DNA of 3,412 nt, taken from the IMG/VR virus record IMGVR_UViG_2630968808_000007, positions 1-3,412 of that record, one strand, 5' to 3'. Within the stretch, counting starts at the first letter, position 1. Each line of letters opens with the position of its first letter. Under the pieces are notes generated by a model. That model saw only the letters and a list, made by a program, of their open reading frames with translations. It did no database searches and was not told the DNA's origin. A program made the position numbers and the translations under genes. The DNA comes from a virus. Lineage: Duplodnaviria; Heunggongvirae; Uroviricota; Caudoviricetes. Below, one piece after another: positions 1,458-3,412 of the stretch.

Positions 1458-1828
1458 CTACCGTCCTATCGAAATATAACTGAATCTGTATTGCTGTGAG
1501 ATATCACTGGTTGCCACACGCCACGCTGAATTACTGATATGTTCAAAATTTACAGACAAAACCTGCGGGGCAGGATTCGACGGGTCTGACTGAACGGCAT
1601 CAGACATAACACTGACTGAAACCATCGGCTGATTAGGGAATGGTATAGGGAAGTGTCCACTGATAAAGCGGGTTGTGTTTCCTGAAAAAGTGCCAAACTG
1701 AACAATATATCCACCTGGTAGCCTGAACCATCCCGAACCAGAAGCGAATGCTCCCATATCCGGTATCTGATTATCTCCTGTGCCCACATTCCGTTTTGCC
1801 GCTTCTCCCAAACCAATGTTTTTGAGAA
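1458..1828 (-). CDS. Alternative tail fibre C-terminal variable cassette (Sv'-like), promoterless and start-less in this orientation; expressed only after inversion fuses it to the constant fibre N-terminus
   Basis: Open frame on the minus strand ending at the stop at 1460-1458, 2 nt upstream of the tfa' start. It has a Gly/Ser-rich fibre-tip-like composition (GAFASGSGWFRLPGGYIVQFGTFSGNT). The frame runs through the crossover site at 1803-1828, which encodes ILKNIGLGE. The ORF-track extension to 1883 begins with TTG and is unlikely to be a real start. Confidence 0.7.
1803..1828. promoter_or_regulatory. Crossover site (gix/hix/cix/pix-type) for the DNA invertase; right boundary of the invertible segment
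   Basis: TTCTCCCAAACCAATGTTTTTGAGAA is a 12-2-12 imperfect palindrome. It matches the recalled hixL sequence TTCTTGAAAACCAAGGTTTTTGATAA at most positions, including the AAACC / GTTT cores and the central AA. It lies 55 bp upstream of the invertase start and inside the N-terminal end of the silent fibre cassette, as in Mu G and P1 C segments. Confidence 0.7.
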
Positions 1829-1882
1829 TGACCATTCTGCTCACTAGTGGCATGCTTTCTGCTTTTTGCAGGGGATAAAACA

Positions 1883-2443
1883 ATGCTTATTGGTTATGTG
1901 AGAGTGTCAACAAATGACCAGAACACCGCATTACAGAGAAATGCGCTCGATAGCGCAGGATGTGAACTGATTTTTGAAGATAAGATAAGCGGAAAGACCT
2001 CGGAGAGGCCGGGGCTCAAAAAGGTACTCCGTATCTTGTCGGAGGGAGACACGCTGGTGGTCTGGAAACTCGATCGGCTCGGTAGAAGCATGCGGCATCT
2101 TGTCGTTCTGGTGGAGGAGCTGCGAGAGCGGGGCATTAATTTTCGCAGCCTGACCGACAGCATAGACACGTCTACGCCGATGGGCCGATTCTTCTTTCAT
2201 GTTATGGGGGCTTTGGCAGAAATGGAAAGAGAGCTCATTGTTGAACGCACCCGGGCGGGTTTAGCAGCTGCGCGAGCAAAAGGGCGGATCGGCGGTCGCA
2301 GGCCCAAATTAACGGATGAGCAATGGGCGCAGGCAGGGAGATTGATCTCAGCAGGGGAATCTCGCCAGCGTGTGGCAATAATTTACGACGTAGGGGTTTC
2401 AACACTCTACCGAAAATTTCCGGTAGGTAGTGGTAAGACATAA
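1883..2443 (+). CDS. Site-specific DNA invertase, small serine recombinase of the Gin/Cin/Pin/Hin family
   Basis: ATG at 1883 preceded by GGGGA (1871-1875). The N-terminus MLIGYVRVSTNDQNT carries the catalytic Ser, and VVWKLDRLGRS, GINFRSLTDSIDTS, MGRFFFHVMGALAEMERELIVERT and the C-terminal HTH (VAIIYDVGVSTLYRKF) are nearly identical to recalled Gin/Pin sequences. The ORF-track start at 1847 is a GTG and is unlikely. Stop TAA at 2441-2443. The exact family member cannot be assigned from memory. Confidence 0.95.
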   Translation: MLIGYVRVSTNDQNTALQRNALDSAGCELIFEDKISGKTSERPGLKKVLRILSEGDTLVVWKLDRLGRSMRHLVVLVEELRERGINFRSLTDSIDTSTPMGRFFFHVMGALAEMERELIVERTRAGLAAARAKGRIGGRRPKLTDEQWAQAGRLISAGESRQRVAIIYDVGVSTLYRKFPVGSGKT

Positions 2444-2444
2444 T

Positions 2445-2479
2445 GCAGGCCGCCAGTGAATATTGAAGCTGGCAGCCTG
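2445..2479. terminator. Candidate bidirectional intrinsic terminator between convergent invertase and DinI-like genes
   Basis: GC-rich hairpin: arm 2446-2456 (CAGGCCGCCAG) pairs with 2469-2479 (CTGGCAGCCTG), 10 of 11 bp, with a 12-nt loop. It sits in the 43-bp gap between the two stop codons. There is a short T run after it on the + strand and a moderately U-rich stretch after it on the - strand. Confidence 0.4.
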
Positions 2480-2486
2480 AACCATT

Positions 2487-2753
2487 TTACAGCCCAGCTT
2501 GGCGAACCGTCGGGAATTCAGACACCAGCCACATATCGGCCTCTTCAAACATTTCCTCCAGCATTCGATTCAACTTTTCCCGATCGCTTTTGCTGGCATC
2601 ACTATTCAAGCCGTTCGCCTGCATCGGCTTTACCTTCACTTCGGCATCAGGAAAAATCTTGTGCACCCGCTTTGTTAGCTCAGCTAGGATGATCTCTCCG
2701 GCCCCCTGGAGCCCCTCAACATTTCGCTTGTCATAAACCAGTTCAACAAACAT
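2487..2753 (-). CDS. DinI-family protein (SOS-inducible RecA modulator homolog), 88 aa
   Basis: ATG at 2753-2751 with an AGAGGA Shine-Dalgarno 5-6 nt upstream. The translation MFVELVYDK...ELTKRVHKIFPD...MLEEMFEEADMWLVSE aligns with recalled E. coli DinI (MRIEVTIAK...ELSRRIQYAFPD...ILQETWESADDWFVSE). The ORF-track extension to 3104 would run through the promoter and LexA box and is rejected. A LexA box lies in the promoter. Confidence 0.85.
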   Translation of the reverse strand: MFVELVYDKRNVEGLQGAGEIILAELTKRVHKIFPDAEVKVKPMQANGLNSDASKSDREKLNRMLEEMFEEADMWLVSEFPTVRQAGL

Positions 2754-2776
2754 ACCGATCCTCTTAAAAGTGAAAA

Positions 2777-2804
2777 TTGCCTGTGCTTGATCTGTTTTTA
2801 TAAA
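2777..2804 (+). promoter_or_regulatory. Candidate sigma70 promoter for the rightward two-gene operon
   Basis: TTGCCT (2777-2782), a 16-nt spacer, and TATAAA (2799-2804). The LexA box begins 8 bp downstream, where it would block initiation. The assignment is weaker than for the leftward promoter and alternative -10 registers exist. Confidence 0.35.
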
Positions 2805-2831
2805 AATACAACTGTATATGTATACAGTCAA
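2803..2831 (-). promoter_or_regulatory. Candidate sigma70 promoter of the DinI-like gene, with the LexA box in its spacer
   Basis: On the minus strand: -35 TTGACT (plus 2831-2826), a 17-nt spacer, and -10 TATTTT (plus 2808-2803). The LexA box at 2812-2827 fills the spacer and overlaps the -35. Confidence 0.5.
2812..2827. promoter_or_regulatory. LexA operator (SOS box)
   Basis: CTGTATATGTATACAG is a perfect CTGT-N8-ACAG palindrome with an AT-rich centre, matching the consensus TACTGTATATATATACAGTA. It lies in the 99-bp divergent intergenic region between the DinI-like gene and the 2853 operon. Confidence 0.85.
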
Positions 2832-2852
2832 TGAGCGAGTGAGGGTGCGTTT

Positions 2853-3092
2853 ATGCCTCGTCAACCGGATATTCGTGCTGCTTTTATTGCGGCCATACAG
2901 CAAAACCCGAAGGGCTATCTCTGTCTGCATACAGACAAGTTCATCGCTGAACTGCAGGAGAGGCACTGGCATTTCAGCCAGGCGGATGCAAATACATGGA
3001 TCGAGCGATACCAGCCGGACTTCGCCGATAAGACGACAAACGGCAGCGAGAACCGGTACTGGATCCTGCGTAACATGGGGAGGGTTTTCTAA
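2853..3092 (+). CDS. Hypothetical 79-aa protein, first gene of a LexA-controlled operon; function unknown
   Basis: ATG at 2853 with a GAGGG Shine-Dalgarno at 2841-2845 (7-nt spacing). Its stop TAA (3090-3092) overlaps the next gene's ATG (TAATG), indicating translational coupling. I recognise no family; the protein is Trp/His-rich and non-hydrophobic. Confidence 0.6.
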   Translation: MPRQPDIRAAFIAAIQQNPKGYLCLHTDKFIAELQERHWHFSQADANTWIERYQPDFADKTTNGSENRYWILRNMGRVF

Positions 3093-3412
3093 TGGGATTT
3101 CCATCGCCAGCCATGGATTACCAGGAGCAGCGCATGACGATAGATGTTATCTGCGGTGTAGACAACAACTGCCGGGTTATTGAAACTTCATGCGGCTGGG
3201 CCGTTATTAACGTCAGTCTGAAGCCAGAAAGAGGGGATACGTTGCTGGTTAGCATGGATGGGAGAAACCAGTTTGTGAAGCTACTGGGTCAGGCACTGAT
3301 AACGGAAGAGGGTGAGGCGATCGAAGGAGAAGCCTTGAATGATGTTACGGTGCACGGCGTTCTTACACATACGCTTAACCAAGTTAAAGACGATAAATCG
3401 CCTGTAATGTAG
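3092..3412 (+). CDS. UmuD'-like protein (LexA/UmuD S24-peptidase C-domain homolog lacking the N-terminal arm; HumD-like), 106 aa
   Basis: ATG at 3092 with GGAGG at 3079-3083 (8-nt spacing). The N-terminus M-GFPSPAMDYQEQR matches UmuD residues directly after the Cys24-Gly25 cleavage site (GFPSPAADYVEQR, recalled). Further similarity: GDTLLV vs GDLLIV, DGRNQFVKLL vs DGEFTVKKLQ, VTVHGVLTHTL vs LDVFGVVIHVV. The stop TAG falls at 3410-3412, the window end. Confidence 0.75.
   Translation: MGFPSPAMDYQEQRMTIDVICGVDNNCRVIETSCGWAVINVSLKPERGDTLLVSMDGRNQFVKLLGQALITEEGEAIEGEALNDVTVHGVLTHTLNQVKDDKSPVM

What the first reader, a model, noticed from the sequence alone, without database searches (positions are those of the whole stretch)
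2754..2852. Perfect SOS box centred in a divergent promoter region
CTGTATATGTATACAG (2812-2827) is a perfect 16-bp CTGT-N8-ACAG palindrome. It sits in the spacer of a strong leftward promoter (TTGACT-17-TATTTT) and just downstream of a candidate rightward promoter (TTGCCT-16-TATAAA). The two -10 elements overlap (2799-2804 and 2803-2808), so the promoters may compete for RNA polymerase as well as being co-repressed by one LexA dimer.
Basis: seen in the sequence. Interest (0 to 1): 0.55.

Follow-up and report, generated by a model that had tools for sequence, protein, structure and literature searches.

The report
Shared LexA operator, prophage dinI/umuD' module
A genuine, strongly conserved LexA (SOS) operator lies between a prophage dinI-like gene and a divergent two-gene operon ending in a pre-cleaved UmuD'-like gene; this design is already annotated in phages P1 and phiKO2, so it is a solid but ordinary find.

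Summary
The box CTGTATATGTATACAG is at 2812-2827 as reported. It matches CTGT-N8-ACAG exactly but is a 7+7 palindrome, because the central TG is not self-complementary. It lies in the 99-bp gap between a DinI-family gene (2753..2487, minus strand) and an operon of a 79-aa ORF plus a UmuD'-like gene (2853-3412).

Among 107 distinct upstream regions of 79-aa homologues from six enterobacterial genera, 98 carry such a box 29-42 nt before the ATG. The arms are nearly invariant and there are 28 different cores.

The leftward promoter TTGACT-17-TATTTT is supported. Its -35 occurs in all 13 loci with a divergent dinI and in none of the 83 without.

The conserved rightward element is TTGATC(2787-2792)-17-AACTGT(2810-2815). 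This region is colinear with the E. coli umuDC upstream region.

One LexA dimer would therefore occlude both overlapping divergent promoters. This is inferred, not measured.

GenBank records of phiKO2 (DinI/UmuD-like genes) and P1 (lxr/humD) already annotate LexA sites in such divergent regions. Verdict: real, a new member of a known kind, low-to-moderate interest.

The parts
2812..2827 (.). LexA operator core CTGTATATGTATACAG (20-bp site 2810-2829, AACTGTATATGTATACAGTC)
   Evidence: unique match; 17/20 to consensus and a PWM score within the range of E. coli operators; conserved in 98/107 homologous upstream regions, with arms CTGT 95/96 and ACAG 94/96 and 28 different cores.
2826..2831 (-). 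-35 hexamer TTGACT of the leftward (dinI-like) promoter; overlaps the operator by 2 bp
   Evidence: scan hit. TTGACT in 13/13 loci with a divergent dinI and 0/83 without.
2803..2808 (-). -10 hexamer TATTTT of the leftward promoter (17-nt spacer; predicted start near 2796)
   Evidence: TATTTT in 12/13 dinI-containing loci (TATTTC in 1), with no conserved hexamer here in dinI-less loci. The start site is inferred.
2787..2792 (+). -35 hexamer TTGATC of the rightward (orf79-umuD'-like) promoter
   Evidence: invariant in the 13 dinI-containing loci, and a -35 match of at least 4/6 at 17-18 nt spacing in 78/83 others; colinear with TTGATC upstream of E. coli umuDC.
2810..2815 (+). -10 hexamer AACTGT of the rightward promoter (TACTGT in 87/96 relatives); overlaps the left arm of the operator; predicted start near 2822
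   Evidence: The same TTGATC-17-TACTGT geometry is found upstream of E. coli umuDC and sulA. The window is the only sequence in the set with A at the first position. The start site is inferred.
2777..2804 (+).
   Evidence: TATAAA in 4/13 and TTGCCT in 7/13 related loci; not reported by the scan, because the -10 lacks the final T.
2487..2753 (-). DinI-family gene (88 aa), Shine-Dalgarno AGAGGA upstream
   Evidence: Pfam PF06183, 82.2 bits, E 3.4e-23. (phrog_189). Annotated as 'DinI family protein' in the near-identical E. coli locus.
2853..3092 (+). orf79: 79-aa protein of unknown function with a predicted winged-helix fold; first gene of the rightward operon
3092..3412 (+). Short UmuD'-like gene (106 aa) starting at MGFPSPA; its start codon overlaps the orf79 stop (TAATG)
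   Evidence: phrog_3469, full length, E 5e-47. (HumD and UmuD NCBIfam models match the N-terminal part only, below cut-off). (alignment with HumD-like proteins and E. coli UmuD). (junction TTTCTAATGGGA).
2446..2479 (.). GC-rich hairpin between the convergent invertase and dinI-like genes; candidate bidirectional terminator ending the dinI transcript
   Evidence: -19.5 and -22.3 kcal/mol, z about -4.6 on both strands. The terminator scan did not call it because there is no T run. phiKO2 has an annotated 'putative bidirectional' terminator at the equivalent place.

Best explanation
The 16-mer is a functional operator for the host LexA repressor, placed inside two fully overlapping, divergent sigma-70 promoters of a mobile prophage SOS cassette.

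Leftward, TTGACT(2831-2826)-17-TATTTT(2808-2803) drives a DinI-family gene. The operator fills the spacer and 2 bp of the -35, which is a recA-like geometry.

Rightward, TTGATC(2787-2792)-17-AACTGT(2810-2815) is a homologue of the umuDC promoter. It drives orf79 (a small winged-helix protein) and a translationally coupled, pre-truncated UmuD'-like gene. The operator covers the -10 and the predicted start.

In uninduced lysogens one LexA dimer would block RNA polymerase at both promoters. After DNA damage, RecA*-stimulated LexA self-cleavage would release both.

Shown here: the sequence elements, their conservation, and their co-occurrence with the genes. Inferred: LexA binding, the start sites (about 2796 leftward, about 2822 rightward), co-repression, and competition between the two promoters.
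For: Site quality:
- Unique CTGT-N8-ACAG match in the window.
- 17/20 identity to the consensus; PWM 22.3-22.8 bits against 16-28 for E. coli operators and 8.4 for the next-best site in the window; heterology-index-like value 4.4-4.6.

Conservation:
- 14 of 14 phage, prophage and phage-plasmid loci first examined carry the box upstream of the orf79 homologue.
- 98 of 107 distinct upstream regions carry it 29-42 nt before the ATG.
- Arms are nearly invariant, there are 28 different N8 cores, and the flanks have low information content.
- Five of the nine exceptions are secondary insertions or a contig end. A group II intron abuts an intact box in two loci. An IS-like element splits the box in two loci. 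One contig ends inside the box.

Leftward promoter:
- Found by the scan.
- TTGACT in 13/13 loci with a divergent dinI and 0/83 without; TATTTT in 12/13.
- dinI homologues in other contexts also carry LexA boxes.

Rightward promoter:
- TTGATC-17/18-TACTGT is kept across the family and persists where dinI is absent, for example phage LAU1.
- The region is colinear with the E. coli K-12 umuDC upstream region, whose box TACTGTATATAAAAACAGTA is identical to the commonest phage box.
- sulA has the same hexamer geometry. recA has the box-in-spacer geometry.

Precedent:
- GenBank annotation of phiKO2 (lexA binding site with divergent promoters for gene 22 DinI and gene 23 UmuD-like).
- GenBank annotation of P1 ('LexA binding site in the regulatory region of lxr and humD').
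- Gifsy prophage dinI homologues are experimentally LexA-controlled and induced by DNA damage (PMC3121763; PMC8072944).
- ssb and uvrA are cited as sharing one SOS box.
Against: - There are no binding or transcript data for this locus; the start sites are predictions.
- The rightward -10 is weak by consensus (AACTGT, 2/6). The scan tool does not call it here and by its rules would not call the umuDC or sulA versions either. I could not verify the published umuDC or sulA start sites in the held literature.
- The window alone has A instead of T at 2810, which may weaken this promoter.
- The 13 dinI-containing loci are probably one clade, so the perfect association of TTGACT/TATTTT with dinI may reflect a single ancestral event rather than 13 independent tests.
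- The homologous loci are not phylogenetically independent.
Confidence: 0.8

Rival explanations
1. One reading: the rightward transcript starts from TTGCCT(2777-2782)-16-TATAAA(2799-2804). Its -10 overlaps the leftward -10, and the operator lies just downstream at about +1 to +16.
For: Both hexamers are present with a 16-nt spacing. The pair is also present in the closest relatives L015, L016 and L005. The window has a weakened AACTGT in the alternative -10, so a lineage-specific second promoter cannot be excluded. LexA would still block this promoter.
Against: TATAAA is in only 4/13 and TTGCCT in 7/13 related loci, and neither element is found in the wider family. TATAAA lacks the final T that the scan requires. 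TTGATC-17-TACTGT is the element under conservation and is homologous to the umuDC region.
Confidence: 0.12
2. The operator controls only the rightward orf79-umuD'-like operon, as the ancestral umuDC-type operator. The dinI-like gene is expressed from another, LexA-independent promoter.
For: The box is ancestral to the orf79 operon and is present in 83 loci with no dinI. The association between dinI and TTGACT may be a single clade effect.
Against: No other promoter-like site is found in the 99-bp gap. TTGACT and TATTTT are kept within the dinI clade while the neighbouring intergenic positions vary. Every other dinI homologue inspected has its own LexA box. Gifsy dinI genes are LexA-regulated.
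Confidence: 0.06
3. The palindrome is a chance match, an RNA hairpin or terminator, or the operator of some other (phage-encoded) repressor rather than LexA.
For: CTGT-N8-ACAG occurs by chance about once per 65 kb (my arithmetic), and 8 of 200 shuffles of the window had a match. As RNA the site can form a 7-8 bp hairpin.
Against: The hairpin is weak (-5.9 and -7.3 kcal/mol, z -1.4 and -1.7) and has no T run. The motif is conserved across lambdoid, Mu-like-tailed and linear-plasmid prophages with different immunity systems. Its commonest form is identical to the host umuDC operator. The only Rfam match is far below threshold (18.7 bits against a gathering score of 60).
Confidence: 0.02

Closest known systems
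Klebsiella phage phiKO2 genes 22 (DinI) and 23 (UmuD-like), with the annotated lexA binding site (NC_005857, 25981-26001)
   Same: A DinI-family gene, next to the tail genes and oriented opposite to them, faces a UmuD'-type gene that starts at GFPSPA. A LexA site and overlapping divergent -10/-35 signals are annotated in the gap, and there is a bidirectional terminator behind dinI. PMC7556043 cites the original phiKO2 paper for LexA regulation of the din-like gene.
   Different: phiKO2 has no orf79. It carries a full box (TACTGTATGCATATACAGTA) close to dinI plus a second, degenerate box, whereas the window has a single shared box. Its UmuD-like protein is the long (127-aa) HumD type, not the short 106-aa type.
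Phage P1 lxr-humD divergent region (NC_005856, LexA site 87545-87564)
   Same: One annotated LexA site lies 'in the regulatory region of lxr and humD', that is, between divergent genes one of which encodes a pre-truncated UmuD' homologue.
   Different: The partner gene is lxr, not dinI. Lxr is not homologous to orf79 (E 0.13). In P1 humD directly follows the box (20 nt), with no intervening small gene.
E. coli K-12 umuDC promoter-operator
   Same: Colinear upstream sequence: TTGATC, a 17-nt spacer, TACTGT overlapping the box, then a similar region before the ATG. In the dinI-less relatives an ATTGATAG motif further upstream is also shared. The box TACTGTATATAAAAACAGTA is the commonest one in the phage family.
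   Different: In the window the core is ATATGTAT and the first -10 base is A. The 3' flank has been changed to AGTCAA, which creates the leftward -35. The first gene is orf79 rather than full-length umuD, and there is no umuC.
E. coli recA and sulA promoter-operators
   Same: recA: TTGATA-[CTGTATGAGCATACAG]-TATAAT, with the box as the spacer, like the window's leftward promoter. sulA: TTGATC-17-TACTGT, with the box over the -10, like the rightward promoter.
   Different: Those are unidirectional promoters with one geometry each. Here both geometries use the same 16 bp on opposite strands.
Gifsy-1/2/3 LexA-controlled dinI operons (Salmonella), and the uvrA-ssb shared SOS box
   Same: Prophage dinI homologues lie behind a LexA box and are induced by DNA damage (PMC3121763; PMC8072944). 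uvrA and ssb are cited as divergent genes sharing one box.
   Different: In Gifsy phages dinI is followed in the same operon by an antirepressor that triggers induction. Here the dinI transcript appears monocistronic and the companion genes are divergent. No antirepressor homology was found for orf79.

Membership tests
Enterobacterial LexA operator (SOS box) | CTGT-N8-ACAG arms with an AT-rich core close to TACTGTATATATATACAGTA | tested here: met
   exact arms, 17/20 identity to the 20-mer consensus, and a PWM score (22.3-22.8 bits) within the range of E. coli operators.
Enterobacterial LexA operator (SOS box) | Overlaps the core promoter elements or start site of the regulated gene | tested here: met
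   (leftward -35 and spacer). (rightward -10). The promoter elements are inferred from consensus and conservation, not from mapped 5' ends.
Enterobacterial LexA operator (SOS box) | Conserved at the same position in orthologous regulatory regions while the flanks drift | tested here: met
   98/107 regions; arms 94-95 of 96; 28 different cores.
Enterobacterial LexA operator (SOS box) | Bound by LexA; the gene is derepressed by DNA damage in a recA/lexA-dependent way | not testable with these tools
   Needs EMSA or footprinting and expression assays. Only indirect precedent is available.
DinI family | Pfam PF06183 above its gathering score | tested here: met
   82.2 bits against a cut-off of 24.2.
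DinI family | Equivalog of chromosomal E. coli DinI (NCBIfam NF007893 cut-off) | tested here: not met
   42.9 bits against a cut-off of 111. It is a DinI-family paralogue of the prophage type, not the chromosomal orthologue.
UmuD'/HumD (pre-cleaved Pol V accessory subunit) | Protein begins at the GFPSPA motif, which corresponds to the UmuD' N-terminus | tested here: met
   MGFPSPA aligns with residues 25 onward of E. coli UmuD and with the N-termini of the HK140 and phiKO2 HumD-like proteins.
UmuD'/HumD (pre-cleaved Pol V accessory subunit) | Full-length match to the HumD or UmuD NCBIfam model, or to a Pfam family such as Peptidase_S24 | tested here: not met
   HumD model 33.3 bits against a cut-off of 120, residues 1-57 only; UmuD-subfamily model 22.7 bits against 110; no Pfam family at E<=0.01; an 11-residue gap at the loop that carries Ser60 in UmuD. 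The full-length match is to phrog_3469 'UmuD-like'. It is therefore a divergent short subclass, not a confirmed HumD.
UmuD'/HumD (pre-cleaved Pol V accessory subunit) | Complements umuD for SOS mutagenesis together with UmuC | not testable with these tools
   Genetic assay needed. The P1 record notes this function for HumD.
Divergent SOS gene pairs sharing a LexA-controlled regulatory region (P1 lxr-humD, phiKO2 22-23, uvrA-ssb) | Two divergently transcribed genes with LexA operator(s) between them that overlap both promoters | tested here: met
   a 99-bp gap, one box, and promoter elements for both strands overlapping it. Functional co-repression was not tested.
umuDC-type promoter-operator | TTGATC, a 17-nt spacer, TACTGT, with the LexA box starting at the third base of the -10 | tested here: met
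   (colinear alignment with E. coli umuDC). The window deviates by one base (AACTGT).

The most novel reading that the evidence does not exclude
The SOS box itself is conventional. What it controls may not be. orf79 is a roughly 79-aa stand-alone protein with a predicted winged-helix fold and no known function. It nearly always sits directly behind a umuDC-type LexA operator and is tightly, often overlappingly, coupled to a UmuD'-like gene. It could be a new SOS-regulated partner or regulator of phage UmuD'/Pol V, or a LexA-controlled antirepressor-like factor linking DNA damage to prophage behaviour. The single-box dinI/orf79 arrangement would then be a compact bidirectional SOS switch in which the two promoters compete.
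Probability: 0.15. Interest if true: 0.5.

Novelty: new member of a known kind. Interest (0 to 1): 0.27.

Why it matters
It adds a well-supported LexA-regulated prophage cassette to the accessory SOS regulon of Enterobacteriaceae: a DinI-family gene, a small winged-helix protein and a UmuD'-like gene. The cassette moves between lambdoid, Mu-like-tailed and plasmid prophages.

Such cassettes may alter SOS dynamics and damage-induced mutagenesis in lysogens. By analogy with E. coli DinI and P1 HumD, DinI would modulate RecA filaments and a pre-cleaved UmuD' would bypass RecA-mediated activation. This could bear on the evolution of antibiotic resistance.

The practical gains are a corrected promoter model with testable start sites, and a clear target (orf79) for functional work. 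Conceptually the regulation is textbook.

Tried and rejected
- The search for related loci with the 12-sequence alignment A1 failed because it had no conserved stretch. I split the alignment into A2 and A3 instead.
- The P1 HumD paper and the phiKO2 genome paper are not held. I used the GenBank annotations instead.
- A literature search for the mapped umuDC start site found only Acinetobacter papers, so the -10 assignment for umuDC and sulA rests on sequence geometry and my recollection.
- The afdb50 fold library was unavailable.
- The Rfam match psRNA6 over 2791-2826 (18.7 bits against a gathering score of 60, E 0.024) was rejected as noise.
- The hairpin or terminator reading of the box was rejected.
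- Homology between P1 Lxr and orf79 was rejected.
- Pfam and NCBIfam gave nothing useful for orf79.
- The retron annotation next to an orf79 copy in phage vB_EcoS-733R5 was checked. The element is a group II intron.

Full report
OBSERVATION

The sequence CTGTATATGTATACAG is at 2812-2827 and is the only CTGT-N8-ACAG match in the window. Shuffles give 0.04 matches per window, and 8 of 200 shuffles had at least one.

It is not a perfect palindrome. Its reverse complement is CTGTATACATATACAG, so the arms are 7+7 around a non-symmetric TG.

The extended 20-mer AACTGTATATGTATACAGTC matches the classical consensus TACTGTATATATATACAGTA at 17 of 20 positions.
- The site scores 22.3-22.8 bits.
- The training sites themselves score 16-28 bits.
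- The next-best site in the window scores 8.4 bits.
- A heterology-index-style value is 4.4-4.6.

The motif alone would occur by chance about once per 65 kb (my arithmetic). The case therefore rests on site quality, position and conservation.

SURROUNDINGS

The window holds, in order:
- the end of an invertible tail-fibre segment: tail-fibre C-terminus 7-450, two opposed tail-fibre assembly genes, and a gp53-like fibre tip on the minus strand;
- a Pin/Hin-type invertase, 1883-2443;
- a DinI-family gene on the minus strand, 2753..2487 (Pfam PF06183, 82 bits);
- a 99-bp gap;
- a 79-aa ORF, 2853-3092, with no Pfam or NCBIfam family but matching phrog_3893 of unknown function;
- a 106-aa UmuD'-like ORF, 3092-3412 (phrog_3469). 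Its ATG overlaps the preceding stop (TAATG).

From 1754 onward the window is 99.6% identical to a prophage of E. coli strain 1500. That prophage has a contractile, Mu/SfV-like tail module and sits next to ssrA.

The same dinI / orf79 / umuD'-like cassette occurs in several other settings:
- between the tail-fibre genes and the attachment site of lambdoid phages HK140 and mEp390 (also in Flotzy and Eeyore; their gene context was not inspected);
- in HK225, without the umuD'-like gene;
- in Enterobacter phage-plasmids.

It is therefore a mobile 'moron'-type module.

IS THE BOX CONSERVED?

I collected homologues of orf79 from annotated phages, from GTDB species genomes (16 loci) and from IMG/VR (80 loci). 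Named hosts include Escherichia, Enterobacter, Klebsiella, Erwinia, Cronobacter and Pantoea, plus Citrobacter, Leclercia, Lelliottia, Kosakonia and others.

Of 107 distinct 120-nt upstream regions, 98 carry a CTG-N10-CAG box 29-42 nt before the ATG. In the 96 regions long enough to anchor on the box:
- the arms are CTGT in 95 and ACAG in 94;
- there are 28 different N8 cores;
- the flanking positions have low information content.

Most of the nine exceptions are explained.
- In L013 and L090 a group II intron (Rfam RF02005, about 185 bits) is inserted immediately after an intact box, at ...AAAAACAGT|GTGCGCC.
- L073 has the same intron-like sequence before its ATG, but no box was found in the upstream sequence held.
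- In L063 and L079 a roughly 1.3-kb IS-like element with an 8-bp duplication (ATATAAAA) splits the box.
- L018 ends inside the box.
- The remaining three look like partial or spurious protein hits.

This is the pattern expected of a site under purifying selection, not of a chance palindrome. The caveat is that the loci are related, so these are not 98 independent observations.

THE TWO PROMOTERS

Leftward promoter. TTGACT(2831-2826)-17-TATTTT(2808-2803) is the only sigma-70-like site the scan finds in 2400-3412.
- All 13 distinct loci with a divergent dinI have TTGACT, and 12 have TATTTT.
- None of the 83 dinI-less loci has TTGACT, and no hexamer is conserved at the -10 position there.
- The dinI-containing loci are probably one clade. 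Even so, within that clade these hexamers are invariant while the neighbouring intergenic bases vary.
- The operator fills the spacer and the last two bases of the -35. recA has the same logic: TTGATA-[CTGTATGAGCATACAG]-TATAAT.
- dinI homologues in unrelated contexts also carry LexA boxes.

Rightward promoter.
- TATAAA occurs in 4 of 13 and TTGCCT in 7 of 13 close relatives. Neither is a feature of the wider family.
- TATAAA lacks the terminal T the scan requires.

What is conserved is TTGATC (2787-2792), a 17-nt spacer, and (T/A)ACTGT (2810-2815).
- The -35 matches at 4/6 or better, at 17-18 nt spacing, in 13/13 dinI-containing loci and 78/83 others.
- The -10 position reads TACTGT in 87 of 96. 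The window is the only sequence with AACTGT.
- The arrangement persists in phages that lack dinI and the leftward elements, for example LAU1.
- The block is colinear with the upstream region of E. coli K-12 umuDC: ATTGATAG...TATTGATCTG-17-TACTGTATATAAAAACAGTA...GCAGATTATTATG. The dinI-containing loci, including the window, lack the upstream ATTGATAG part. The umuDC box is identical to the commonest phage box (38 of 96).
- sulA shows the same TTGATC-17-TACTGT geometry.

I therefore read the rightward promoter as a umuDC-type promoter whose -10 overlaps the left arm of the operator. I could not check the published umuDC or sulA start sites in the held literature. That step is inference.

MECHANISM

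Predicted starts are about 2796 (leftward, 43-nt leader) and about 2822 (rightward, 31-nt leader). Each -35 lies downstream of the other promoter's start. The two -10 hexamers are 1 bp apart on opposite strands.

A LexA dimer on 2810-2829 would cover the leftward -35 and spacer, and the rightward -10 and start. One dimer should therefore shut both promoters. RNA polymerase could occupy only one promoter at a time once LexA is gone.

None of this has been measured for this locus.

The cargo is coherent with SOS control. From established knowledge rather than tests here, DinI modulates RecA filaments and UmuD processing.

The 106-aa protein starts exactly at the GFPSPA that begins UmuD' after RecA-mediated cleavage. 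It belongs to a short subclass.
- It lacks an 11-residue loop that contains Ser60 in UmuD.
- It fails the HumD and UmuD NCBIfam cut-offs.
- It has no Pfam family match, so no Peptidase_S24 assignment.

I do not call it a confirmed HumD.

COMPARISON WITH WHAT IS KNOWN

The design is already annotated elsewhere.
- The phiKO2 record marks a lexA binding site and overlapping divergent -10/-35 signals between gene 22 (DinI) and gene 23 (UmuD-like). PMC7556043 cites the phiKO2 paper for LexA regulation of that din-like gene.
- The P1 record marks a 'LexA binding site in the regulatory region of lxr and humD'.
- Gifsy prophage dinI homologues are experimentally LexA-dependent (PMC3121763) and induced by DNA damage (PMC8072944). 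The latter paper also cites ssb/uvrA as sharing a box.

The differences here are:
- a single shared box, where phiKO2 and loci L094, L095 and L098 have two;
- the extra gene orf79;
- the short UmuD'-like subclass.

The annotated regions of HK140, mEp390 and HK225 that I retrieved mark no LexA site for this cassette. The instance is thus unannotated, but the kind is known.

orf79

The family is small: 169 representatives at 50% identity and 1040 clusters at 90% identity. The best-scoring members listed carry no informative name. P1 Lxr is unrelated. The function of orf79 remains open, and this is the only part of the locus with real novelty potential.

VERDICT

The LexA-operator interpretation is strongly supported by comparative evidence. 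The leftward promoter is supported. The rightward promoter should be reassigned.

The feature is a new member of a known kind, of low-to-moderate interest. Decisive tests are LexA footprinting, 5'-end mapping with and without SOS induction, and hexamer and operator mutagenesis in a bidirectional reporter.

Noticed in passing
[not shown]
   Followed up: partly
window 3092-3412: The UmuD'-like protein belongs to a short (105-108 aa) subclass. It starts at GFPSPA but lacks an 11-residue loop that holds Ser60 in E. coli UmuD. It misses the HumD NCBIfam cut-off and has no Pfam family match. orf79 pairs with both this short class and the long 129-aa HumD class (HK140, L004).
   Followed up: partly
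L115 176-270 (E. coli K-12 umuDC upstream) versus window 2761-2855 and phage loci (alignment A6): The regulatory region upstream of orf79 is colinear with that of chromosomal umuDC. In the dinI-less phage loci the shared blocks include an ATTGATAG motif further upstream and the bases just before the ATG (GCAGAT(T/C)ATG). This suggests the cassette derives from a umuDC-type operon in which orf79 took the place of the umuD 5' end.
   Followed up: partly
L013 545-822 and L090 57-335: A group II intron (Rfam RF02005, about 185 bits; its reverse transcriptase is annotated as 'retron-type') is inserted in the sense orientation directly after the LexA box (...AAAAACAGT|GTGCGCC) and before the orf79 ribosome-binding site. 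The intron therefore sits in the LexA-controlled 5' leader.
   Followed up: partly
L063 and L079, about 640-1970: A roughly 1.3-kb IS-like element with terminal inverted repeats GGGTCTTCCC/GGGAAGACCC and an 8-bp target duplication ATATAAAA is inserted in the AT-rich core of the LexA box. It separates the promoter from orf79.
   Followed up: no
window 1802-1827 (partner at L001 9462-9487, just upstream of the window start): A 26-bp inverted repeat (CTTCTCCCAAACCAATGTTTTTGAGA) resembles hix/pix/gix crossover sites. The two copies bracket the tail-fibre tip and assembly genes next to the invertase, so the window begins essentially at the left edge of an invertible host-range segment.
   Followed up: partly
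window 2446-2479: A strong GC-rich hairpin lies between the convergent invertase and dinI-like genes (-19.5 and -22.3 kcal/mol, z about -4.6 on both strands). It lacks a T run. It is a candidate bidirectional terminator, as annotated at the equivalent place in phiKO2.
   Followed up: partly
L094, L095, L098 (upstream of orf79) and L112 564-609 (phiKO2): Variant cassettes carry two tandem LexA-like boxes between dinI and the rightward gene, for example TACTGGATGGATATACAGTA followed by TACTGTGTTTTTATCCGGTA. The second box is degenerate. The window's single shared box looks like a compacted version.
   Followed up: no
whole window; L001: The window is mosaic. Positions 1754-3412 are 99.6% identical to an E. 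coli strain 1500 prophage at ssrA. Positions 1-1827 are 96.6% identical to phage SKA5. No complete E. coli genome in the collection holds 80% or more of the window in one place.
   Followed up: partly
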